Shown: positions 5,893 through 16,034 of the stretch, in pieces
How the letters are laid out: each line of letters opens with the position of its first letter
Position numbering within the stretch: the stretch's first letter is position 1
Source: Alphaproteobacteria bacterium
GTDB taxonomy: Bacteria; Pseudomonadota; Alphaproteobacteria; JAQWUY01
Reading direction: 5' to 3'
Length of the DNA: 64,000 bases
NCBI GenBank assembly: GCA_029250225.1
Contig: JAQWUY010000031.1
Coordinates: forward strand, 87,705-151,704
Position numbers and translations under genes: made by a program
The notes under the pieces: model-generated
Told to the model about the DNA's origin: nothing
The model's database searches: none
The model's input: only the letters and a program-made list of their open reading frames with translations

Positions 5893-6387
5893 TCAATGAT
5901 TAAAATTTTTAAATGTTCTTTGTTTGTTAATTTTCCATTCACGATCTTTTATACTATCTCGTTTATCAACATTTCTTTTGCCTCGGCCAATGCCTAGCAA
6001 CAACTTAACTAACCCCTTTTGATTGAAATACAATTTTAACGGGATTGCACTAAGGCCATCTTTTGAAATTTTAGATATTATTTTGTTAATTTCACGACGA
6101 TGTAAAAGTAATTTTCTTGGACGATTTTCTTTGTGAACTGATATTTTAGCATTATTTTTATATTCACTAATATGTAAATTAACTATTTCAAGTTCATTGT
6201 TTTCAGTAAATTGAGCGTGAGCATCGTCTAGTTTAACGCTACTTGTTCTTAATGACTTAACCTCACTACCTGAAAGGCATATGCCAGCTTCATAGGTTTC
6301 AATTATTTCATAATCGAATTTTGCTCTACGGTTATTAGCTATAATCTTTTCATTATCATTTTTATCATTAGATTTTTTTTTAGTCAT
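5893..6387 (-). CDS. smpB: SsrA-binding protein
   Basis: The 164-aa product carries the SmpB fold signature KIIANNRRAKFDYEI...GSEVKSL and ends in a basic tail. Confidence 0.9.
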   Translation of the reverse strand: MTKKKSNDKNDNEKIIANNRRAKFDYEIIETYEAGICLSGSEVKSLRTSSVKLDDAHAQFTENNELEIVNLHISEYKNNAKISVHKENRPRKLLLHRREINKIISKISKDGLSAIPLKLYFNQKGLVKLLLGIGRGKRNVDKRDSIKDREWKINKQRTFKNFNH

Positions 6388-7447: not shown

Positions 7448-8449
7448 ATGAAACACTGTAAGAACAAAATTAAAAAAAACAAAACTGGTATTTTAATTGT
7501 AAATCTTGGAACTCCTGATTCACCGACAACGAAAGGAATTAAGGTTTACTTGAAGGAATTTTTGTCAGATGAAAGAGTAATTGAAACAAACAAATTTATT
7601 TGGCAAATAATCCTTAGGTTATTTATATTACCTTTTCGTTCGCCAAAGGTAGCAAAATCATATGCTAGCATCTGGGATAGAGATAAAAATGAAAGCCCTT
7701 TACTTGTTAATACCCGTAATCAAGCTGAAAAAATGCAAGCAAAATTGGGAATACCAACATATTTTGCTATGAGGTATGGTAATCCATCAATTGATAGTGT
7801 TATGCAAAAAATGAACGACGATGGAATTAAAGAAATACTTGTAATCCCATTATATCCACAATATTCATCAGCAACAACAGCAACAGTAGTTGATAAGGTT
7901 AATGAATGCCTTGGAAAAATGCGTCGCCAACCAACTATTCGCTATGCAAGGCCTTATTTTCAAAATAAAAAATATATAGAAGCATTAAATAATTCTATTA
8001 ATAATCACTTGCAAGATATTGATTTTAAACCAGAAAAAATAATATTAAGTTATCACGGCATACCTCGTCGATATCATAAAAAAGGTGATCCATATCCTTG
8101 TCATTGTAAAAAAACATCTAGACTACTTACACAGATATCACCACTTAACAAAGATATTTTTATAACAACTTTTCAGTCGATTTTTGGCAAACAAGAATGG
8201 GTAAAGCCATATACAAATGCAACATTAATTAAACTTGGGAAATCAGGTGTTAAAAATATATCAATAATAGCCCCTGCTTTTGCTAGTGATTGCCTTGAAA
8301 CCCTTGAAGAGATATGCGAAGAGTTAAAGGACGATTTTATAAATGCTGGGGGTGAAAATTTTTCTTATATACCTTGTCTTAATGATAGCGATGAAAGTAT
8401 CGATATGTTGTGTGATATTGCAAAAAATGAATTAAAAGGCTGGATATAA
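7448..8449 (+). CDS. hemH: Ferrochelatase
   Basis: The track ORF starts at a TTG at 7406. The first ATG, at 7448, gives MKHCKNKIKKNKTGILIVNLGTPDSP, the conserved ferrochelatase N-terminus. The product has the expected length and motifs (LYPQYS). Confidence 0.85.
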   Translation: MKHCKNKIKKNKTGILIVNLGTPDSPTTKGIKVYLKEFLSDERVIETNKFIWQIILRLFILPFRSPKVAKSYASIWDRDKNESPLLVNTRNQAEKMQAKLGIPTYFAMRYGNPSIDSVMQKMNDDGIKEILVIPLYPQYSSATTATVVDKVNECLGKMRRQPTIRYARPYFQNKKYIEALNNSINNHLQDIDFKPEKIILSYHGIPRRYHKKGDPYPCHCKKTSRLLTQISPLNKDIFITTFQSIFGKQEWVKPYTNATLIKLGKSGVKNISIIAPAFASDCLETLEEICEELKDDFINAGGENFSYIPCLNDSDESIDMLCDIAKNELKGWI

Positions 8450-8452
8450 AAA

Positions 8453-8477
8453 AGGAGTATTAGTTAATAATACTCCT
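8453..8477 (-). terminator. Hairpin (AGGAGTATTA-loop-TAATACTCCT) followed by a U-run on the minus strand
   Basis: A perfect 10-bp inverted repeat with a 5-nt loop. AAAAA at 8448-8452 supplies the U-tract for the minus-strand transcript of the 66-aa ORF. Confidence 0.45.
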
Positions 8478-8501
8478 GACTAATATTTAGTTAGTTTAAT
8501 T

Positions 8502-8702
8502 TTATTTATCTGATTTAACTTTATTATAAATACTCTTAGTAACTATATATAATGCAATAAAGCCTATTGCAGTCATTGCGATATGATCAATTTCCGTGAA
8601 AAAATGACCAGATAACAAGTCAGAAGATGTATGTAATTCACCTGAATGAGAAAAAGCAAAGCTAGGAATTGCAAGAGTTAGTAAAGATAGTAGTTTTTTC
8701 AT
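8502..8702 (-). CDS. Small hypothetical exported/membrane protein (66 aa)
   Basis: The ORF has an SD-like AAGGA about 8 nt upstream of its ATG. The product has a signal-peptide-like N-terminus, a His-rich segment (HSGELH..SGHFF..DH) and one TM helix. A hairpin terminator lies downstream at 8453-8477. No recognised family. Confidence 0.4.
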   Translation of the reverse strand: MKKLLSLLTLAIPSFAFSHSGELHTSSDLLSGHFFTEIDHIAMTAIGFIALYIVTKSIYNKVKSDK

Positions 8703-8798
8703 GTTTTTTCCTTTATTTTGTTTGTATTTTGCTTAACTAATAATTAAACTCAAATTTATACTAAATCAACATAATAAAAGAAGTAAAGATAAAAAATA

Positions 8799-9863
8799 AT
8801 GAAATACAATAAAATTCATAACACAAACTTAAAAGCGTCACTTTTATCATTAGGAACGATGACTTTTGGTGCACAAAATAATTTCCAAGAATCATCACAG
8901 ATGCTAGATATGGCCGTAGACAATGGTATAAACTTTATTGATACAGCTGAATTGTATCCATCACCAGCAGATGAGCATCATAATGCACACCATACAGAAA
9001 TGTTTATTGGTAAGTGGATAAAAACCAAAAAAATAAATCGTGATAATTTAGTTATTGTAAGTAAAGTTATGGGGCCAATGTCACAACTTATTGAACTAGA
9101 TAATCCTGCAAGGGTTTGTATTAATCCGTTAAGCGGAGAAACTATAAAATCTAGTGTTGATAAAATATTATCAAGATTAAATACAAATTACATAGATATT
9201 TTATTAGTGCATTGGCCTTTACGAAATTCTAATTTCTTTGGAAAATTAGGATATATTCATCAACAAGAAGATTTCGATGTTAATAAGCATATACAATCAA
9301 CTATTGAAACAATGAACGAATTAATAGAATCAGGAAAAATTAGGCATTACGGTGTATCAAATGAAACAGCTTGGGGCTTGATGAAATATATTCAAATTGC
9401 AGATAAAGAAAATTTACCTCGTCCTGTTGTATGTCAAAATCCTTATTCATTGTTAAATCGTTCGTATGAAGTTGGAATGGCTGAAATATCAATTCGCGAA
9501 AAAATCGGATTAATGGCTTATTCTGTAATAGGTGGTGGAATTTTAACAGGTAAACATATTAATGGTTTTGTAAAAAATTCACGCTATGATTTACGCCCCG
9601 ATTATTATAGTAGATACACCAACAAGGAAAGCCTTGATGCAACTAATGAATATGTAAGCCTAGCAAAAAAATACAACATCTGCCCTACTCAAATGGCTAT
9701 TAGTTTTGTAAATAAACAGCAATTCATATTATCAACGATTACAGGTTCGACAAAAACTAAACATTTGCAATCTTATATCGATAGTTTAAGTGCTGATTTA
9801 CCCAATGAATTACTAACTGAAATAGAGCAAATACATAGAAAATTCACCTATCCAGCTCCATAA
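8799..9863 (+). CDS. Aldo/keto reductase family NADP-dependent oxidoreductase (Tas-like)
   Basis: The 354-aa product has an AKR N-terminus (LGTMTFG, GINFIDTAELYP). It lies just upstream of tRNA-Glu. Confidence 0.8.
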   Translation: MKYNKIHNTNLKASLLSLGTMTFGAQNNFQESSQMLDMAVDNGINFIDTAELYPSPADEHHNAHHTEMFIGKWIKTKKINRDNLVIVSKVMGPMSQLIELDNPARVCINPLSGETIKSSVDKILSRLNTNYIDILLVHWPLRNSNFFGKLGYIHQQEDFDVNKHIQSTIETMNELIESGKIRHYGVSNETAWGLMKYIQIADKENLPRPVVCQNPYSLLNRSYEVGMAEISIREKIGLMAYSVIGGGILTGKHINGFVKNSRYDLRPDYYSRYTNKESLDATNEYVSLAKKYNICPTQMAISFVNKQQFILSTITGSTKTKHLQSYIDSLSADLPNELLTEIEQIHRKFTYPAP

Positions 9864-9885
9864 TAAAAAAAAATAAAAAAAGTAG

Positions 9886-9914
9886 TTGACTATAAGGCCG
9901 TAAAATAATATATA
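9886..9914 (+). promoter_or_regulatory. Sigma70-like promoter for tRNA-Glu (TTGACT-N17-TATATA)
   Basis: TTGACT at 9886-9891, a 17-nt spacer, then TATATA at 9909-9914. This lies about 30 nt upstream of the mature tRNA 5' end. Confidence 0.4.
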
Positions 9915-9944
9915 TGCGTAGTGTTCAGGCACCAACCGCATTAT

Positions 9945-10019
9945 GTCTCCTTCGTCTAGCGGTTAGGACGCCGCCCTTTCACGGCGGAAACAGGGGTTCA
10001 ATTCCCCTAGGAGATGCCA
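9945..10019 (+). tRNA. tRNA-Glu (anticodon UUC), CCA encoded
   Basis: Manual cloverleaf. Acceptor stem GTCTCCT/AGGAGAT, D-stem GTCT/GGAC, anticodon stem CCGCC/GGCGG with loop CTTTCAC (anticodon TTC), T-stem AGGGG/CCCCT with loop TTCAATT, discriminator G, then CCA. Total 75 nt. Confidence 0.9.
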
Positions 10020-10025
10020 ATGTTA

Positions 10026-10054
10026 AAAACACCCCGTTTCGGGGTGTTTTTTTT
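10026..10054. terminator. Bidirectional rho-independent terminator (CACCCCG-TTT-CGGGGTG flanked by A-run and T-run)
   Basis: A GC-rich 7-bp stem, then T8 on the plus strand after the tRNA. AAAAA before it gives a U-tract for the minus-strand orf104 transcript. Confidence 0.65.
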
Positions 10055-10076
10055 GTTTCACTGATAAGTCATATAA

Positions 10077-10129
10077 AAAACATAAATGATGCCTTAGCAA
10101 TCAATTATATTGATTTAAAAGCATATTTG
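10077..10129 (-). repeat. Direct repeat copy A: promoter/5'-end module of the T5orf172-family gene (about 53 bp, 93% identical to copy B)
   Basis: Copy A reads aaaacataaatgatgccttagcaatcaattatatTGatttaaaagcatatTtg. Copy B (10522-10574) reads ...atatCAatttaaaagcatatCtg. On the minus strand copy A carries TATAAT, an AAGG SD and the remnant codons GIIYV, then diverges. Confidence 0.8.
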
Positions 10130-10444
10130 CTATAATGGTCTACTTGACAAATCTGCTATTTTTATATCTCCTTGTGAGGTTTCTTTGTAAGTGATTAATG
10201 CAATTATTCTATTTTCTCTAAGTTTTTCTAAATTATCTTTAAGATAATTTTCTATGAGTGGTTTTATTTTCTCAAATATATCTTTTGAGTTTTCTTTTTG
10301 CCATGATTCTTGTTCTATATAATCACTTGCTATATTTAAATCTATATCTCTATTGAAAATTTTACCATCTTCTTCTACTTTAAAACTAATTGCAACACCA
10401 TCATTATCTCTTTCTAGTTCTTTTATAAATTCTATTTTAATCAT
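10130..10444 (-). CDS. Hypothetical acidic protein (104 aa), orphan
   Basis: The ATG at 10444 is preceded by AAGGAG with a 7-nt spacer. An open frame of 104 codons is unlikely by chance in 30%-GC DNA. The product is rich in D/E, with no motif I recognise. It sits exactly between repeat copies A and B. Confidence 0.55.
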   Translation of the reverse strand: MIKIEFIKELERDNDGVAISFKVEEDGKIFNRDIDLNIASDYIEQESWQKENSKDIFEKIKPLIENYLKDNLEKLRENRIIALITYKETSQGDIKIADLSSRPL

Positions 10445-10493
10445 TTTGACTCCTTATTATAATTTTTAATATATCTTAGTAGATATGTTGCAC

Positions 10494-10574
10494 AATCCTA
10501 TCTGGCATAGAAAGATTTGTCAAAACATAAATGATGCCTTAGCAATCAATTATATCAATTTAAAAGCATATCTG
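10494..10574 (-). pseudogene. Direct repeat copy B: promoter (extended -10 TGATATAAT) plus 5'-terminal 17-codon remnant of a T5orf172 paralogue
   Basis: On the minus strand the sequence reads TTGATATAATTGATTGCTAAGGCATCATTTATGTTTTGACAAATCTTTCTATGCCAGATAGGATT. It encodes (stop)-GIIYVLTNLSMPDR and then diverges. It is about 90% identical to 11227-11277, the real gene start, which encodes MSKGIIYVLTNPSMPDW. The start codon is lost, ATG becoming GAT. Confidence 0.75.
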
Positions 10575-10644
10575 TTCACATAATCATTAAGATAAATGTA
10601 AATTATTAAAAAATTGTAGGAATTAGCAAAATAAAAAAAGTGTT

Positions 10645-11280
10645 TTATTCTGATTCTAGTCTTATTCTCATACGATGTAAATTAACTTCATCACCAACTC
10701 TCCAATAGCTGGCTGGCTGAAAAGATTTCCAATTATAACCTAATTCATTTAATACTATCGATGTTGCATCTTTAAACTTCATTTTTTTATCTCTGAAAGA
10801 TAAAATATTTTTTTTGTTATCTAGAATTTTTGCTGTTATTGATTCATCTTTTGTAAATTTTATTTCATCACCAACATTAAGGCCGACAATGGAAAAATGA
10901 AACCTTTCCCTTTGTTTATTCTTTTTTTCCTGTTCTTTTATTTCTTTTACGGTTTCTTGGTCTATATTTGTTTTTAATTCAACAACTTCACCATCATAAC
11001 TATCTATAAGCTTGACAACCTGATCTAGGCAATCTTTTTTTATAAATTCTTTTGAGCCTGCTTTTAAGCCAAGACTACCATATGCATCAAAAACTGCACT
11101 TTCTTTTTTCTTACAATCATTAACCTCTTTGGCATAATAAAAATCAAAAGGAAGGGGAACACCTGTTGGCCTTGATAACTCTTTTATTCTTTTATTAACA
11201 TCTGCTCTTTTTGTAATTCCTACTTTAATCCAATCTGGCATAGAAGGATTTGTTAAAACATAAATGATGCCTTTGCTCAT
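10645..11280 (-). CDS. Stand-alone GIY-YIG-like (T5orf172/MUG113-type) domain protein with a DUF4357-like C-terminal module
   Basis: The 211-aa product has the N-terminus GIIYVLTNPSMPDWIKVGIT...NKRIKELS...GVPLPFDFYYAKEV, matching the T5orf172 pattern GxxYVLxNxxxPxxxKVGxTxxxxxxRxxxL...GVPxPF. The C-terminal 80 aa (FHFSIVGLNVGDEIKF...ATSIVLNELGYNWKSFQPASYWRVGDEVNLHRMR) resemble the small module commonly fused to T5orf172. It starts 6 bp after the gatB stop, on the same strand. Confidence 0.7.
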   Translation of the reverse strand: MSKGIIYVLTNPSMPDWIKVGITKRADVNKRIKELSRPTGVPLPFDFYYAKEVNDCKKKESAVFDAYGSLGLKAGSKEFIKKDCLDQVVKLIDSYDGEVVELKTNIDQETVKEIKEQEKKNKQRERFHFSIVGLNVGDEIKFTKDESITAKILDNKKNILSFRDKKMKFKDATSIVLNELGYNWKSFQPASYWRVGDEVNLHRMRIRLESE

Positions 11281-11286
11281 TAGAAC

Positions 11287-12741
11287 CTACTTCAATTTTT
11301 GTGCTAGTAGTTTATTAACCATAGCGGGATTAGCTTTGCCGGCTGTTTTTTGCATAACTTGACCAACGAACCACCCTATTAGTTTCGGGTTTTCTTTGAC
11401 TTTTGCTACTTGATTTGGGTTTTCAGTGATTACAGTATCAATAATGCCTTCAATTGCACCAGTATCTGTAATTTGCTTTAATCCCTTTTCCTCGACAATA
11501 ACAGCGGGTTTTTTACTAGTTTTAAACATATCAGCAAAAACTTCTTTGGCAATTTTACCTGAAATAGTATTATCTTCTATCAAGCTAATTAATTCGGCTA
11601 GGTCTTGTGCTTTTACAGGGCAATCATTTATATCTAGCTCTGCTTTTTTTAATGCACCGAATAATTCAGAAACAACCCAGTTAGCTGCTAGTTTTTTGTT
11701 TTTAACACCGCTTGCTACTTTTTCAAAATATGAGGCATTTTTTTTGTTTGCAACCAAAACAGCACCATCATAACTAGATAATCCGAATTCATTAATAAAT
11801 CTTTCTTTCTTCGTATCTGGTAATTCAGGCAAACTATCTTTACATTCATTGATAAATTCATCATCAATAACCACTGGTAATAAATCAGGGTCTGGGAAAT
11901 ATCTATAATCGTGAGCATCTTCTTTGCTACGCATTGTACGAGTTTCGCCTTTTTCAGCATCAAAGAGTCTTGTTTCTTGGTCAATTACTCCGCCATTTTC
12001 AAGAATTTCAACCTGACGAGTAGCTTCAACCATTATAGCTTGCTTGATAAATCTTACAGAGTTAATATTTTTGCACTCAGTCCTTGTTCCTAAGTTTTTA
12101 TCACCAACACGACGAACAGAAACATTTACATCAGCACGCATTGAACCCCTTGCCATAATACCATCACAAGAATCAATATATTGTACAATTGTTTGTATTT
12201 TTGTGAAGTAAGCTCCGGCTTCTTCTGCTGAGCGAATATCGGGATTTGATACAATTTCCATCAATCCAACTCCTGAACGGTTTAAATCAATAAATGATTT
12301 TTCTGGGTGTTGGTCGTGAATTGATTTACCCGCATCTTGTTCAATATGTAATCTTTCAATACCTATTTCTTTTGTTGTGCCATCTTGTAAGTCAATTGTA
12401 ACGACACCCTCACCAACTGTTGGTTGGTCTGCTTGTGAAATCTGATAACCTTGTGGTAAATCTGCATAAAAATAGTTTTTACGAGCAAATACGGATTTTT
12501 TATTGATTTTAGCACCTAGTGCTAATCCAGTTCTTACAGCTTGCCTTACACATTCTTTATTAACCACTGGCAACATACCTGGAAAAGCTGAATCTACAAA
12601 ACTTACATTTTCGTTTGGTTGTGCACCAAATGATGCAGGTGAACAAGACATTAATTTTGATTGTGAAATAATTTGTGCGTGGACTTCCAATCCAATTACC
12701 ATTTCCCAATCACCTGTTGTTCCTTTTATTATAGCAGTCAT
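11287..12741 (-). CDS. gatB: Glu-tRNA(Gln)/Asp-tRNA(Asn) amidotransferase subunit B
   Basis: The 484-aa product has the GatB N-terminus [13 protein letters not shown] and a YqeY-like C-terminus. Confidence 0.95.
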
Positions 12742-12754
12742 TGTTAATTATTCC

Positions 12755-14206
12755 TTATATATTTGGTGTTGCATCAAATTTTGCTTGCTTTTCTAGGGCA
12801 TAGCTTGCTTTTAAAACAGTTTCTTCATCGAATGCTTTACCTATTATTTGTAATCCCAGAGGTAAGCCACTATCACTAAGTCCAACCGGCACAGACATTC
12901 CAGGTAAACCAGCCATATTTAAAGTTACACTAAATACATCATTTAAATACATTTTTACCGGATCTTCTTGATTTTCACCAATTTTAAAGGCCGGACTTGG
13001 TGTAATTGGTGTTAATAATGCATCAACAGATTCAAACGCTTTTTTAAAGTCATTTGCAACCAAGCGACGAACCTTTTGTGCTTTAATATAATAAGCATCA
13101 TAAAAACCAGCCGACAATACATAAGTACCCATTAATATACGGCGTTTTACTTCCTCGCCAAAACCTTCTGATCTTGTAAGTTCGTACATTTCATCTAATT
13201 CTTTGCCACTAACTCTATGGCCGTAACGAACTCCGTCGTATCTTGATAAGTTACTAGATGCTTCTGCACAAGCTATTATATAATATGCAGGTAAGGCATA
13301 TTTTGTATGTGGTAGTGAAACATCTACAATTTCAGCCCCAGCTTCGACAAGCATTTTTTTACCATTATCCCATATTTTAGCAATTTCTTGTGGCATATCA
13401 TCAATATAATATTCCTTTGGAATACCTATTTTTAGCCCTTTTACATCGCCTGTTAATACAGCTTCAAAATCTGGCACTGGAATATTTGCCGATGTAGAAT
13501 CTTTTTCATCGTGTCCAGACATATTGGATAACATAATAGCACAATCACGCACATCTTTACCTATCGGCCCGACTTGGTCAAGACTTGATGCATAAGCAAC
13601 AACTCCCCAACGAGAACAGCGCCCATAAGTTGGACGAATTCCAGCAACACCACAAAAAGCCGAAGGTTGACGAATTGAACCACCAGTATCAGTTCCTGTA
13701 CTAGCAATAGCAGATCTTGCCGAAACAGCACAAGCCGAACCACTAGAAGAACCACCAGCAACTAAGTCATTTCCCCAAGGGTTTTTTGTTCCACCGTAAA
13801 ATGAGCTTTGTCCATTTGAACCCATTGCAAATTGATCTAAGTTTAATTTACCTAATGATATACAGCCACTTTCAGCAAGTTTTTGTGATACAGTTGATTC
13901 ATAATCTGGTGTAAAATTATCGAGCATTTTTGAACCTGCTGTTGTTTTTACGCCTTTTGTACATAATAAATCTTTGTGTGCAATTGGCATACCTTCCATA
14001 GGTCGCATATTACCACTAGCGATATTATTATCGGCAATTTTTGCCTGAGATAATGCATTATCGGTTGTTTTTGTAATATAAGCATTAAGATTATCAGTTT
14101 TTTCCATTTGATTTATATATGATGTTGTTAATTCAACAGCACTAAAATCTTTGTTCTTTAACCCAGTTGTTGCCTGAGATATTGTAAGTTTAGTTAAATC
14201 AGTCAT
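12755..14206 (-). CDS. gatA: Glu-tRNA(Gln) amidotransferase subunit A
   Basis: The 483-aa product carries the amidase signature GGSSSGSA. Confidence 0.95.
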
Positions 14207-14493
14207 TATTCCACCACCTTCGGAACGGTAAAGAAGTTCATAGTATCATCGGTTGCATTATTTACAATAGTTTCAGGATAACCACCGTCTTTTATTTCGT
14301 CATTGCGTAAAACCTGAACTCCATCAAGTGGATTTGCCATAGGTTCAACATTATCTGTATTTAATTCATTTAATTGTTCCATAAAACCTAGAACTTTTTG
14401 AATATCATTTGTGTATTGTTCAAGTTGTTTATCATCGATACGAATACGAGATAATTTAGCTACTTTTTTAACATCATCATTACTGAAAGACAT
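14206..14493 (-). CDS. gatC: Glu-tRNA(Gln) amidotransferase subunit C
   Basis: The 95-aa product starts [17 protein letters not shown]. Its stop overlaps the gatA start in an ATGA arrangement. Confidence 0.9.
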
Positions 14494-14614
14494 AATTTAC
14501 CTTTTCTGATTTAAAATTGAAAAATTTTGATAGTGATATATATAGCAAAATATAAGTAATATTAAAATAAAAAACTTGTAATATTAATGAATTTATTTTA
14601 TTACAATAGTTAAT

Positions 14615-15088
14615 ATGATAACTGAAACACAAAATATAATAAAATTATTAAAGCCTGGACAACGAATAATGGGAATTGATTTGGGCGAAAAAACAATAGG
14701 AGTGTCTGTCTCAGACCCTGCTTTTAGAGTGGCAAGTCCTATAAAAACAATAAGACGAAAAAAATTCAAAACTGATATTATTGAAATAAAAAATGTAGTC
14801 CACGATTATAATATCGGGGCAATAATATTAGGGTTTCCATTAAATATGGATGGTAGTAAATCAAAAAGATGTCAATCAACAAAACAATTTGCTTTAAACT
14901 TATCTTATAATGGAATTGATATTCCAATGGCATTTTTTGATGAAAGATTATCAACTGTAGCTGTTGAAAAAATATTAATTAATGAAGCTGATATGAGTCG
15001 TGAAAAAAGGAGTAAATCCGTAGATAAAATGGCGTCTTCGTTTATTTTACAAGGCGCATTGGAATACTTACAAAATATTGAACATTAG
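14615..15088 (+). CDS. ruvX: Putative pre-16S rRNA nuclease / Holliday-junction resolvase-like YqgF
   Basis: The 157-aa product has a GIDLGEKTIGVSVSD RNase H-like N-terminal motif. The start could instead be the internal ATG at 14669. Confidence 0.8.
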   Translation: MITETQNIIKLLKPGQRIMGIDLGEKTIGVSVSDPAFRVASPIKTIRRKKFKTDIIEIKNVVHDYNIGAIILGFPLNMDGSKSKRCQSTKQFALNLSYNGIDIPMAFFDERLSTVAVEKILINEADMSREKRSKSVDKMASSFILQGALEYLQNIEH

Positions 15089-15101
15089 GGAGGTTCATTG
15101 T

Positions 15102-16034
15102 ATGACTACACTTAAAAATAAAAGTATAATTGACATAGAAGATTTATCAATAGAGGAAGTTAATTCTATACTAGATTTAGCTGAAACTTATTCCAAACAA
15201 AACCGACAAAGAAATGTACCTTATAATAAATTACAGGGGCTAGGCCTTATTAATGTGTTTTTTGAAAACTCTACTCGCACTTTAATGAGTTTTGAGCTAG
15301 CTGGTAAAAAATTAGGTATGCATACAGTTAATATGAGTGTTTCTAACTCTTCATTACAAAAAGGCGAAACTCTAAGGGATACTATCAAGACTCTAGAATC
15401 TATGTTAGCTGATGTGATAGTGATAAGACATAGTCAAAATGGTGTCATAAAAATGATTGATGATATGGTTGATTGTTGTGTTATCAATGCTGGTAATGGT
15501 ACAAATTCACACCCAACACAAGCATTACTTGATGCACTTAGTATTCGCAATAAGTTAGGAACTTTAAAAGGTATTAAAGTTGCAATTTGTGGTGACATTA
15601 GGCATTCAAGAGTTGCTCGTTCTAATATAAAATTAATTAAAATGTTAGGCGGAGATGTAAATATTATCGCTCCAAAAGAATTGATACCATCTGGTATAGA
15701 TAATTGGGGAGTTAGCGTATTTAATGATATGGACGAGGGAATTAAAAATTGCGATGTTATTATGATGCTTCGATTACAAATGGAAAGAATGCAAGAAACA
15801 AAAATTTCAGATAAACAGGCATATCATAAGTTATATGGTTTAAATCACGAAAGACTAGAAAATGCAAAAAAGGATGTGTTAGTAATGCACCCAGGCCCTA
15901 TTAATCGTGGCGTGGAAATATCTGCTGAACTTGCAGATGATGCTGAAAGAACATTGATTAATTATCAAGTTGAAATGGGTGTTGCTGTGAGAATGGCTTG
16001 TTTAGATTTATTGACAACTAAAAAACAAAAGTAG
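15102..16034 (+). CDS. pyrB: Aspartate carbamoyltransferase catalytic subunit
   Basis: The track ORF starts at 15078. The ATG at 15102 is preceded by GGGAGG at 15087-15092. The product carries STRTL and HPxQ motifs. Confidence 0.9.
   Translation: MTTLKNKSIIDIEDLSIEEVNSILDLAETYSKQNRQRNVPYNKLQGLGLINVFFENSTRTLMSFELAGKKLGMHTVNMSVSNSSLQKGETLRDTIKTLESMLADVIVIRHSQNGVIKMIDDMVDCCVINAGNGTNSHPTQALLDALSIRNKLGTLKGIKVAICGDIRHSRVARSNIKLIKMLGGDVNIIAPKELIPSGIDNWGVSVFNDMDEGIKNCDVIMMLRLQMERMQETKISDKQAYHKLYGLNHERLENAKKDVLVMHPGPINRGVEISAELADDAERTLINYQVEMGVAVRMACLDLLTTKKQK

What the first reader, a model, noticed from the sequence alone, without database searches (positions are those of the whole stretch)
10020..11286. 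Small accessory islet wedged between tRNA-Glu and gatB in an otherwise housekeeping-only region
Within 64 kb of tightly packed core genes, the only non-core stretch lies next to tRNA-Glu(UUC). A tRNA 3' flank is a classic insertion hotspot. The stretch contains a bidirectional terminator, two long direct repeats, a 104-aa orphan ORF, and an intact T5orf172-type GIY-YIG-like gene fused head-to-tail to the gatCAB operon with a 6-bp gap. No integrase or transposase is present. This is either a very old, pared-down insertion or a locally duplicated gene family. Stand-alone T5orf172 proteins are largely uncharacterised, and they recur in phage and defence-island contexts. That is why an intact copy retained in a reduced genome is worth a look.
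Basis: partly seen in the sequence, partly recalled or inferred. Interest (0 to 1): 0.6.

Follow-up and report, generated by a model that had tools for sequence, protein, structure and literature searches.

The report
Strain-variable nuclease islet behind gatB
Between gatB and tRNA-Glu, an AT-rich marine alphaproteobacterium carries two small gene cassettes, a predicted restriction-type DNA nuclease and a fast-evolving orphan protein, that come and go between near-identical strains by recombination at short direct repeats copied from the nuclease gene's own start.

Summary

The stretch is accessory. The closest other species (L001) has only 184 bp between gatB and tRNA-Glu. Metagenome contigs 98-100% identical in the flanks show three states: nuclease + orf104, nuclease only and orf104 only. 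The breakpoints lie exactly in the repeats (733-bp and 445-bp indels).

The repeats are copies of the nuclease gene's first ~50 nt (R), with or without a 36-nt upstream element (U). They are not tRNA att sites, and there is no integrase.

The 211-aa protein has an N-terminal T5orf172/GIY-YIG domain and a C-terminal RAMA-fold DNA-binding domain, not DUF4357. It matches PADLOC candidate PDC-S57 over its full length (E 3e-49) and is under purifying selection (dN/dS 0.1-0.3). Its most likely role is a solitary, modification-sensing restriction-type endonuclease read through from gatCAB. A homing-endonuclease-like selfish gene is the main rival.

orf104 is lineage-restricted, keeps its frame through in-frame indels, and shows 0 synonymous against 21 nonsynonymous variants. 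Its function is unknown.

Overall this is a new member of a known but uncharacterised family, in an unusual integrase-free cassette arrangement.

The parts
9945..10019 (+). tRNA-Glu(UUC). It is convergent with the islet and forms its right-hand boundary.
   Evidence: ARAGORN; Rfam tRNA 62.3 bits. No second copy of its 3' end anywhere in the window.
10025..10051 (.). G+C-rich hairpin terminator shared by tRNA-Glu (+) and, by inference, by the gatCAB-islet transcript (-).
   Evidence: Terminator scan, + strand: 12-bp stem, 6 GC pairs. On the - strand the stem is followed by TTTTTAAC (sequence). It is conserved in all strain variants (alignments A1 and A2).
10077..10129 (-). Repeat copy 3. It comprises the 36-nt element U (10094-10129), which starts directly after the orf104 stop, plus R'' (10077-10093), the first 17 nt of the shared GGCATCATTTATGTTTT segment of the nuclease gene's 5' end.
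   Evidence: the repeat finder D2, 94% identical to 10522-10574; pattern searches; U-to-U alignment P=0 in 2000 shuffles.
10130..10444 (-). orf104, a lineage-restricted 104-aa protein with its own AAGGAG ribosome-binding site. It is fast-evolving and of unknown function.
10077..10521 (-). Cassette 2, a 445-bp presence/absence unit carrying orf104. Because it is flanked by repeats, it can equally be drawn as 10130-10574.
   Evidence: Missing exactly, leaving one repeat copy, in L081, L082, L083, L084 and L088, and by matching spacing (335-nt gap, single U match) in L109 and L110. gatB is 100% identical to the window in L081, L082, L084 and L088, and the reductase gene is 100% identical in L081, L082 and L088.
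10494..10574 (-). Repeat copy 2. It comprises U (10539-10574), which carries a sigma-70-like promoter match (TGAACA, 18 nt, TG-n-TATAAT), plus R' (10494-10538). R' is a start-less copy of nuclease codons 4-18; a TAA stop immediately precedes it in frame.
   Evidence: the repeat finder D1 and D2; promoter scan 10578->10549; tblastn YVLTNPSMPDWI against YVLTNLSMPDRI; frame read from the sequence.
10645..11280 (-). Gene for the 211-aa T5orf172-RAMA nuclease (PADLOC candidate family PDC-S57). It starts 6 nt after gatB, with no terminator between the two genes.
   Evidence: PF10544 E 2e-12. PDLC05041 E 2.9e-49 covering profile positions 4-206 of 212. Y7, K19, G21, T23, R31, E60 and E78 are invariant across 31-32 homologues. 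dN/dS 0.1-0.3, and 0.19 against a 68%-identical copy. AF2 model pLDDT 84.8.
11005..11271 (-). N-terminal T5orf172 / GIY-YIG-like nuclease domain (aa 4-92).
10666..10908 (-). C-terminal RAMA-fold DNA-binding domain (about aa 125-205).
11227..11276 (-). Repeat copy 1 (R). This is the native 5' end of the nuclease CDS (codons 2-18, including the GIY motif) and is 92% identical to R'.
   Evidence: the repeat finder D1; pattern search.
10494..11226 (-). Cassette 1, a 733-bp presence/absence unit made of the nuclease gene body, a 70-nt spacer, U and R'. It can equally be drawn as 10544-11276.
   Evidence: L097 and L099 have gatB, 109 nt, then orf100. This is exactly the spacing predicted for an R x R' recombinant. 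The junction sequence CCAGATTGGATAGTGCAAC cannot be produced by path-switching in a k-mer graph of an L098-type genome (sequence reasoning on alignment A2).
11287..12741 (-). gatB, the last gene of gatCAB. It forms the left-hand boundary and is the presumed source of transcription for the nuclease gene.
   Evidence: ORF list; GatB_N and GatB_Yqey domains in the identical loci.

Best explanation
The 1.27-kb interval is a strain-variable accessory islet. It sits at the 3' end of the gatCAB transcription unit of an uncultured, 30%-GC marine alphaproteobacterium and consists of two independently gained or lost cassettes.

Cassette 1 encodes a solitary two-domain endonuclease. The N-terminal T5orf172 (GIY-YIG-type) domain is the catalytic part, and the C-terminal RAMA-fold domain binds DNA. 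This is the architecture of PADLOC candidate PDC-S57. I infer that the RAMA domain positions the nuclease on DNA, possibly according to its adenine-methylation state, and that the GIY-YIG-type site cuts it. That would make it a stand-alone restriction-type (type IV-like) defence nuclease. It appears to be made by read-through or translational coupling from gatB, because it has no promoter or terminator of its own.

Cassette 2 encodes a lineage-restricted 104-aa protein with its own ribosome-binding site and a promoter-like element (U). It evolves almost entirely by amino-acid replacements, and its role is unknown.

The cassettes turn over by recombination between 50-80-nt direct repeats. These repeats are copies of the nuclease gene's own first ~50 nt (R), with or without U. 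Deletion between repeats is the simplest route to loss. Homologous exchange between strains is the simplest route to regain and allele swapping.

Shown here: the anatomy, the three states within the species plus the empty site in a sister species, breakpoints inside the repeats, purifying selection on the nuclease, replacement-biased change in orf104, and the domain and fold assignments.

Inferred: nuclease activity, modification sensing, a defence role, co-transcription, and the direction and enzymology of the recombination events.

The confidence of 0.55 is for the whole statement. The structural and population part alone I would put at about 0.85-0.9, and the defence-nuclease function at about 0.5.
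For: Accessory status:
- L001 (gatB 84% aa identity) has gatB, 184 bp, then tRNA-Glu, with no trace of R or U.

Three states in one species (flanks 98-100% identical):
- Both genes present: the window, L093, L098, L101, L085 and L090.
- Nuclease only: L081-84, L088, L109 and L110.
- orf only: L097 and L099.
- The indels are exactly 445 and 733 bp, which equals the repeat spacings found.
- The repeats undergo concerted change: R and R' of L093 share the AACGAATCC variant.

Domain assignment:
- PF10544 and a full-length PDC-S57 match.
- Catalytic-type residues Y7, R31 and E78 are invariant.
- Fold matches to GIY-YIG nucleases and to the RAMA domains of CcrM and MPND.
- RAMA fused to T5orf172 nucleases is described as a restriction-enzyme architecture (PMC4738411).
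- GIY-YIG-RAMA fusions have been proposed as untested type IV enzymes (PMC11037411).

Solitary occurrence without a methyltransferase fits a modification-dependent enzyme:
- No MTase-motif ORF exists in the 64-kb window.
- Homologues sit alone among housekeeping genes.
- Other homologues lie next to defence-type genes: an Eco57I-like MTase in L002, a BsuBI R-M system on a Sphingomonas plasmid, and HigBA in L114.

Selection:
- Nuclease dN/dS is 0.1-0.3.
- orf104 has 0 synonymous against 21 nonsynonymous variants.

Expression:
- No terminator-like site was found between gatB and the hairpin at 10025-10051.
Against: - No experiment exists for any PDC-S57 or T5orf172-RAMA protein. No paper in the searched library mentions PDC-S57.
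- The window protein itself does not reach the Pfam RAMA model. The assignment rests on fold and on aligned homologues.
- Methyl-adenine preference was not confirmed even for the solved MPND RAMA domain (PMC11037411).
- The immediate neighbours here are housekeeping genes, not a defence island.
- Presence/absence next to an essential gene, a nuclease-plus-DNA-binding architecture and a related copy at another locus are also the signatures of homing endonuclease genes (PMC10448857).
- The origin of the R' and R'' copies and of U is unexplained. U occurs nowhere else in the data searched.
- The evidence for diversifying selection on orf104 rests on few alleles (P about 0.03).
Confidence: 0.55

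Rival explanations
1. Cassette 1 is a free-standing homing-endonuclease-like selfish gene. The nuclease would cut the nuclease-less allele (gatB-R-orf104 junction) in cells that receive DNA. Repair from a nuclease-bearing copy would then spread the gene. R' and R'' would be relics of earlier invasion and decay cycles.
For: - T5orf172 genes are the dominant putative homing endonuclease genes of ICP1-like phages. Their listed signatures are variable presence between near-identical isolates, a position next to essential genes, and a nuclease plus a DNA-binding domain (PMC10448857). All three are met here.
- A 68%-identical copy sits 4 nt after lepA in another organism.
- Other homologues abut housekeeping genes at gaps of 0-13 nt.
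- 5' fragments of the gene lie downstream of it.
Against: - All ~20 recovered copies are intact. dN/dS is 0.1-0.3 even against the copy at another locus, which is unlike decaying homing endonuclease genes.
- Homing does not create 50-nt direct repeats.
- The best profile match is to a defence candidate.
- RAMA-nuclease fusions are linked to R-M systems.
- Homing in a cellular chromosome needs frequent DNA uptake, which was not shown.
Confidence: 0.25
2. The nuclease and orf104 form one two-gene system (nuclease plus inhibitor, immunity or specificity partner). The fast evolution of orf104 would then reflect an arms race linked to the nuclease.
For: - The two genes are adjacent on the same strand and share repeats.
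- orf104 variants are nearly all nonsynonymous.
- orf104 is directly followed by U plus the start of a nuclease gene copy, as if it once sat upstream of one.
Against: - Each gene occurs without the other in natural strains: nuclease only in seven or more contigs, orf only in two.
- orf104 has no relatives next to any other family member examined.
- orf104 has no recognisable fold.
Confidence: 0.07
3. The islet is the remnant of a tRNA-targeting integrative element.
For: - The islet abuts the 3' end of tRNA-Glu.
- In L002 the same interval holds a 4.6-kb insert.
Against: - No integrase is present.
- There is no repeat of the tRNA 3' end.
- The repeats derive from the nuclease gene, and the indel breakpoints lie in them.
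- The L002 scar is a duplicated gatB 3' end.
Confidence: 0.05
4. It is an integron-like, site-specific cassette array in which the U|R junction acts as the recombination site.
For: - Each unit starts with R and ends with U.
- Units are lost precisely.
- L085 ends with a long-form R' after its second repeat, hinting at a further unit.
Against: - No recombinase gene lies nearby.
- The repeats do not fold into attC-like hairpins (z-scores +0.7 to -1.6).
- The nuclease gene would lack a start codon in any position but the first (sequence).
- U was found at no other locus.
- The L085 contig end may be an assembly loop.
Confidence: 0.05
5. The presence/absence states are metagenome assembly artefacts caused by the repeats.
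For: - Several contigs end inside or at the repeats (L085, L089, L090).
- I recall that Logan contigs are built with short k-mers. This is from my own knowledge and was not checked here.
Against: - The same junctions recur in independent samples and assemblers. These include contigs whose names suggest k=119 or k=141 (my reading of the k119_/k141_ names), longer than the repeats, and JGI contigs of 37-42 kb.
- The L097 and L099 junction contains a sequence combination that is absent from genomes carrying both cassettes.
Confidence: 0.03

Closest known systems
PADLOC phage-defence candidate PDC-S57 (single-gene candidate; models PDLC05041 and PDLC05043)
   Same: Full-length profile match (E 2.9e-49, positions 4-206 of 212), with the same ~210-aa two-domain layout. 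The L002 homologue in the same interval also matches (E 3.5e-66).
   Different: PDC-S57 is only a computational candidate with no published test. Here the gene sits among housekeeping genes at the end of the gatCAB operon rather than in a recognisable defence island.
RAMA-domain nuclease fusions (Iyer, Zhang & Aravind 2016, PMC4738411) and the GIY-YIG-RAMA fusions flagged by Helbrecht et al. 2024 (PMC11037411)
   Same: T5orf172/GIY-YIG nuclease joined to a RAMA-fold domain. These fusions are proposed as restriction endonucleases that read adenine methylation.
   Different: The window protein does not itself reach the Pfam RAMA model. No methyltransferase lies nearby. The proposed m6A reading is unproven even for the solved MPND RAMA domain.
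T5orf172 homing endonuclease genes of ICP1-like phages (Barth, Dunham & Seed 2023, PMC10448857)
   Same: Same nuclease domain. Also shared are presence/absence between near-identical genomes, a position directly beside an essential gene, and a nuclease-plus-DNA-binding-domain layout.
   Different: This one is cellular and chromosomal, not phage-borne. Its DNA-binding domain is RAMA. All copies are intact and under purifying selection. It is flanked by direct repeats of its own 5' end. In phage records only the N-terminal domain matches.
PD-Lambda-1 and PD-T4-3 (validated defence proteins with T5orf172 / GIY-YIG domains)
   Different: Only the nuclease domain is shared. The overall architecture and size differ.
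Orphan-cassette arrays downstream of polymorphic toxin genes (CDI/Rhs), compared from my own knowledge
   Same: A full-length gene is followed by short fragments homologous to itself, and these flank unrelated small fast-evolving ORFs. Recombination at the fragments reshuffles the locus.
   Different: Here the fragments copy the 5' end of the gene, not a pre-toxin 3' region. Recombination deletes the nuclease rather than swapping its tip. There is no toxin/immunity evidence.

Membership tests
T5orf172 domain (Pfam PF10544, GIY-YIG superfamily) | Profile match above the curated cut-off | tested here: met
   48 bits against a cut-off of 20, E 2e-12, aa 4-92. All 31 aligned homologues also match.
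T5orf172 domain (Pfam PF10544, GIY-YIG superfamily) | Conserved GIY-type Tyr, catalytic Arg and metal-binding Glu | tested here: met
   Y7, R31 and E78 are invariant in 31-32 sequences. Their catalytic roles are inferred from established GIY-YIG knowledge and from the Glu dependence cited in PMC10448857.
T5orf172 domain (Pfam PF10544, GIY-YIG superfamily) | GIY-YIG alpha/beta fold | tested here: met
T5orf172 domain (Pfam PF10544, GIY-YIG superfamily) | Endonuclease activity | not testable with these tools
   Needs biochemistry.
RAMA domain (Pfam PF18755) | Profile match | tested here: inconclusive
   The window protein has no match at E<=10. Six of 31 full-length homologues match, best E 6.8e-6. 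A profile of the C-terminal domain finds no solved structure by sequence.
RAMA domain (Pfam PF18755) | Fold of solved RAMA domains | tested here: met
RAMA domain (Pfam PF18755) | Discrimination of N6-methyladenine in DNA | not testable with these tools
   Only proposed in the literature, and not confirmed for MPND.
PADLOC PDC-S57 | Full-length match to the family model | tested here: met
   PDLC05041 E 2.9e-49 and PDLC05043 E 1.5e-33.
PADLOC PDC-S57 | Defence-island neighbourhood | tested here: not met
   The neighbours are gatCAB, tRNA-Glu, an aldo-keto reductase gene and hemH. Some relatives do lie beside an MTase, an R-M system or HigBA; others sit among housekeeping genes.
PADLOC PDC-S57 | Anti-phage activity | not testable with these tools
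   No publication found.
Free-standing homing endonuclease gene | Presence/absence at one site between near-identical genomes, beside an essential gene | tested here: met
   L097 and L099 against L098, with flanks 98% identical to the window; the site lies directly after gatB.
Free-standing homing endonuclease gene | Cleavage of the gene-less allele and biased gene conversion | not testable with these tools
   Needs an experiment.
Free-standing homing endonuclease gene | Frequent degenerate (frameshifted or truncated) copies | tested here: inconclusive
   All full copies are intact. Only the 17-45-nt 5' fragments R' and R'' exist.
tRNA-targeting integrative island | Integrase gene and a direct repeat of the tRNA 3' end | tested here: not met
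   No such ORF. The tRNA 3' end occurs only once.
Integron cassette array | IntI-type integrase and hairpin-forming attC sites | tested here: not met
   No recombinase ORF in the ORF listing of window 8000-16000. The repeats fold no better than shuffles.
Type II restriction-modification system | Adjacent cognate DNA methyltransferase | tested here: not met
   No long ORF with a credible (D/N/S)PP(Y/F/W) motif in 64 kb. This feature is met only in L002, which has an Eco57I-like MTase (E 1e-120).

The most novel reading that the evidence does not exclude
The locus could be an integrase-free cassette-exchange site. In this reading the nuclease gene's own 5' segment (R), together with U, acts as a portable homology or recombination site. 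Breaks made by the T5orf172-RAMA nuclease at or near these repeats would drive gain, loss and allele swapping of neighbouring cassettes such as the diversifying orf104. That would be a self-targeting, homing-like mechanism for local gene turnover in a streamlined genome.
Probability: 0.1. Interest if true: 0.8.

Novelty: new variant of a known kind. Interest (0 to 1): 0.5.

Why it matters
T5orf172-RAMA proteins form a large family: about 960 clusters at 50% identity score E<=1e-30. The family is listed only as a defence candidate, and no member has been tested.

This locus offers a clean natural experiment. Near-identical strains differ only by the nuclease cassette or by the orf104 cassette, and the breakpoints are defined to the nucleotide. 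That makes three questions directly testable:
- whether the protein is a modification-sensing restriction enzyme or a selfish homing gene;
- how single defence-type genes are kept and exchanged in streamlined marine genomes that lack integrases;
- what a small protein evolving almost purely by amino-acid replacement is doing next to the nuclease.

If the ordinary reading holds, this is one more accessory defence gene with a tidy population-genetic record.

Tried and rejected
- tRNA att site: the tRNA 3' end is unique in the window.
- attC-like structure of the repeats: folding z-scores are not significant.
- Known RNA families in the islet: only the tRNA passes.
- U as a dispersed repeat: it occurs only at this locus in the window and in JGI metagenomes.
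- U as a decayed copy of the gatB 3' end, as seen in L002: no significant similarity.
- orf104 as a decayed nuclease gene body: no colinear DNA similarity and no protein similarity.
- orf104 homology to the 104-aa ORF upstream of the P0012 homologue: none; that ORF looks like a membrane protein from its sequence.
- orf104 function from families or fold: nothing informative.
- Sequence search of solved structures, with the whole-family profile and with the C-terminal-domain profile: no meaningful hit.
- Cognate methyltransferase in the window: none found.
It was rerun without that row.
- Exact look-up of the window's orf104 protein: not on record.
Full report
**1. What is in the sequence**

The features, read on the minus strand (the direction of gatCAB), come in this order:

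| Feature | Coordinates | Note |
|---|---|---|
| gatB stop | 11287 | |
| Gap | 6 nt | |
| 211-aa ORF | 11280->10645 | |
| AT-rich spacer | 70 nt | |
| Repeat U+R' | 10574->10494 | 81 nt |
| Leader | 49 nt | contains AAGGAG |
| orf104 | 10444->10130 | |
| Repeat U+R'' | 10129->10077 | 53 nt |
| Linker | 25 nt | |
| G+C hairpin | 10051->10025 | |
| tRNA-Glu(UUC) | 9945-10019 | convergent |

- The first ~50 nt of the 211-aa gene (R, 11276->11227) are 92% identical to R'. That segment covers codons 2-18 and includes the GIY motif.
- U (36 nt) is shared only by the two downstream copies.
- R' lacks a start codon. A TAA stop immediately precedes it in frame.
- None of these matches is expected by chance, with 0 in 100 shuffles.
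The window has 30.4% G+C and the islet 27%.

**2. Accessory or core**

- A gatB-anchored scan of one genome per species found the closest relative, L001 (gatB 84% aa identity). It has only 184 bp, with two terminators, between gatB and tRNA-Glu, and no trace of R or U.
- L002 (gatB 79% aa identity) has a 4.6-kb insert in the same interval. It holds luxS, a 218-aa homologue of the nuclease, an Eco57I-like adenine methyltransferase and recQ.
- Just after gatB, L002 carries a duplicated copy of the gatB 3' end.
- The interval is thus a recurrent site of gene turnover, and the scar lies on the gatB side.

**3. Variation within the species**

Exact-protein look-ups and one DNA pattern scan returned about 25 contigs from many samples. 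Alignments A1 and A2 and BLAST of the flanks show three states among genomes 98-100% identical in gatB and the reductase gene.

- Both genes present: the window, L093, L098, L101, L085 and L090.
- Nuclease only: L081-84, L088, L109 and L110. The aligned contigs (L081-84, L088) lack exactly 445 bp and keep one U+R'' copy. L109 and L110 show the same spacing and a single U match. L081, L082 and L088 are 100% identical to the window in both flanking genes. L084 is 100% identical in gatB, and its contig ends before the reductase gene.
- orf only: L097 and L099. gatB is followed after 109 nt by the orf, which is the spacing predicted for an R x R' recombinant (733 bp lost).

Further points:
- L085 and L090 share a 100% identical gatB with the window but carry an orf allele with a different 3' end.
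- R and R' change in concert within genomes. In L093 both carry AACGAATCC.
- The junctions recur across samples and assemblers. Several contig names suggest k-mers longer than the repeats.
- The L097 junction combines variants in a way that path-switching in a two-cassette genome cannot produce.
- I therefore reject an assembly artefact.
- The direction of each event (loss by repeat-mediated deletion, or gain by recombination) cannot be read from these data.

**4. The 211-aa protein**

- Pfam T5orf172 matches aa 4-92 (E 2e-12). DUF4357 is absent.
- PADLOC PDC-S57 matches over the full length (E 2.9e-49).
- Across 31-32 homologues, Y7, K19, G21, T23, R31, E60 and E78 are invariant.
- The AlphaFold model (pLDDT 84.8) has two domains.
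- Six of the 31 homologues reach Pfam RAMA, but the window protein does not.
- RAMA fused to T5orf172 nucleases was described as a restriction-enzyme architecture in 2016 (PMC4738411).
- GIY-YIG-RAMA fusions were flagged in 2024 as untested candidate type IV enzymes (PMC11037411).
- No paper in the searched library mentions PDC-S57.
- The family is large, with 957 clusters at E<=1e-30.
- Full-length members occur on chromosomes, a few plasmids and about a dozen (pro)viral contigs. Isolated phage genomes share only the nuclease domain.
- Contexts are mostly solitary and among housekeeping genes. Gaps to the neighbouring genes are 0-13 nt in the two tightest cases.
- A 68%-identical copy lies 4 nt after lepA in another organism.
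- Some members lie beside an MTase, an R-M system or HigBA.
- dN/dS is 0.1-0.3 within the species and 0.19 against the lepA-linked copy. The protein is therefore functional.

**5. orf104**

- Only four relatives were found (79-100% identity), and every contig retrieved for them is this locus.
- No family or informative fold was found.
- An open 104-codon frame in 24%-G+C DNA, a strong ribosome-binding site and in-frame indels between alleles (6 and 12 nt) argue that it is translated.
- Pairwise dN/dS is 1.1-10. It is 3-10 among the four alleles that align end to end.
- In 74 well-aligned codons, 21 distinct variants are all nonsynonymous (codon positions 11/9/1). Random placement predicts 2.9 synonymous changes (P = 0.03).
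- This suggests diversifying selection, but the sample is small.
- orf104 shows no similarity to the nuclease gene body.

**6. How it most likely works**

- Shown: the anatomy, the polymorphism, the domain and fold assignments, and the selection regimes.
- Inferred: the nuclease gene has no promoter or terminator of its own and is expressed from gatCAB. The whole unit ends at the hairpin shared with tRNA-Glu.
- Inferred: the RAMA domain binds DNA and the GIY-YIG-type site cuts it. Because the gene is usually solitary, a modification-dependent (type IV-like) defence role is the best fit.
- The main rival is a homing-endonuclease-like selfish gene. Every published genomic signature of such genes is met, but intact copies under purifying selection and the defence-family match count against it.
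- tRNA-directed integration is not supported, because there is no integrase and no att repeat. An integron-like system is not supported either, because there is no recombinase and no hairpin.
- The origin of U and of the R' and R'' copies remains unexplained. U is not a dispersed element and is not derived from gatB.

**7. Verdict**

- The islet is real and accessory, and it is evolutionarily active rather than old and pared down.
- Its nuclease is a new member of a known, uncharacterised candidate-defence family.
- The arrangement is an unusual variant: two cassettes bracketed by copies of the nuclease gene's own 5' end, with three cassette states segregating in one species and the empty site in a sister species.
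- It is of moderate interest.

Noticed in passing
L002:7408-7519: The last ~32 nt of gatB (…VNQLLAKKL*) are duplicated twice in degenerate form just downstream of the gatB stop and directly upstream of luxS. This looks like an insertion scar on the gatB side of the same interval.
   Followed up: partly
L002:7534-12050: In this related genome the gatB/tRNA-Glu interval holds luxS, a 218-aa T5orf172-RAMA homologue (PDC-S57, E 3.5e-66), a 497-aa Eco57I-like adenine MTase 30 nt further on, and recQ on the other strand. The nuclease and MTase could form an R-M-like pair.
   Followed up: partly
L085:3100-3183 (and L090 end): After the second U+R copy, the L085 contig continues with GACAAATCTT. That is the long form of R', not the terminator flank. 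It indicates either a third cassette or an assembly loop at the repeat.
   Followed up: no
L085:2838-3140, L090:1944-2246: An orf104 allele sits in a background whose gatB is 100% identical to the window. Its 3' end is entirely different, and the reading frame runs into U (…NYYDRDSYDYLLN*). The C-terminus next to U is a hot spot of change.
   Followed up: partly
L093:5165-5260 and 5930-5990 (alignment A2, columns 76-90 and 806-820): R and R' of the same genome share private variants: AACGAATCC in L093, and AACAAATCC in both copies of L098. In the window they differ. This is evidence for gene conversion between the repeats.
   Followed up: partly
window 10077-10098 vs L093/L097/L098/L101 (alignment A2, columns 1233-1260): The third repeat copy is GGCATCATTTATGTTTT in the window-type strains but GGCAACTTTTATGCYTTT in the others. 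R'' was therefore recently homogenised to R' in the window lineage.
   Followed up: no
L102:5690-6615; L111:3955-5621: Homologues of the nuclease in other marine bacteria overlap or abut housekeeping genes. One overlaps a small membrane ORF by 4 nt, and another overlaps a DeoC-family gene by 1 nt. The pattern recurs: a single gene wedged into an operon.
   Followed up: partly
P0051, P0053, P0087, P0153: Some family members are 400-980 aa long with 3-5 matched stretches. This suggests tandem repeats of the RAMA-like C-terminal domain or fused duplicates.
   Followed up: no
window 1-64000: GANTC (the CcrM site) occurs 89 times. A rough hand calculation from base composition gives about 175, so the site may be under-represented. 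It was not tested against shuffles.
   Followed up: no
window 8502-8702 (-): A 66-aa ORF with an N-terminal signal-like segment and a C-terminal hydrophobic segment lies between hemH and the reductase gene. It is conserved in all strain contigs and, more distantly, in L001 (65 aa). It has no Pfam family.
   Followed up: no
L097:5898-5970: In the nuclease-less state, the retained start of the gene leaves a 23-codon ORF (MSKGIIYVLTNPSMPDWIVQHIY*) just upstream of orf100. It could act as a leader peptide or be a mere relic.
   Followed up: no
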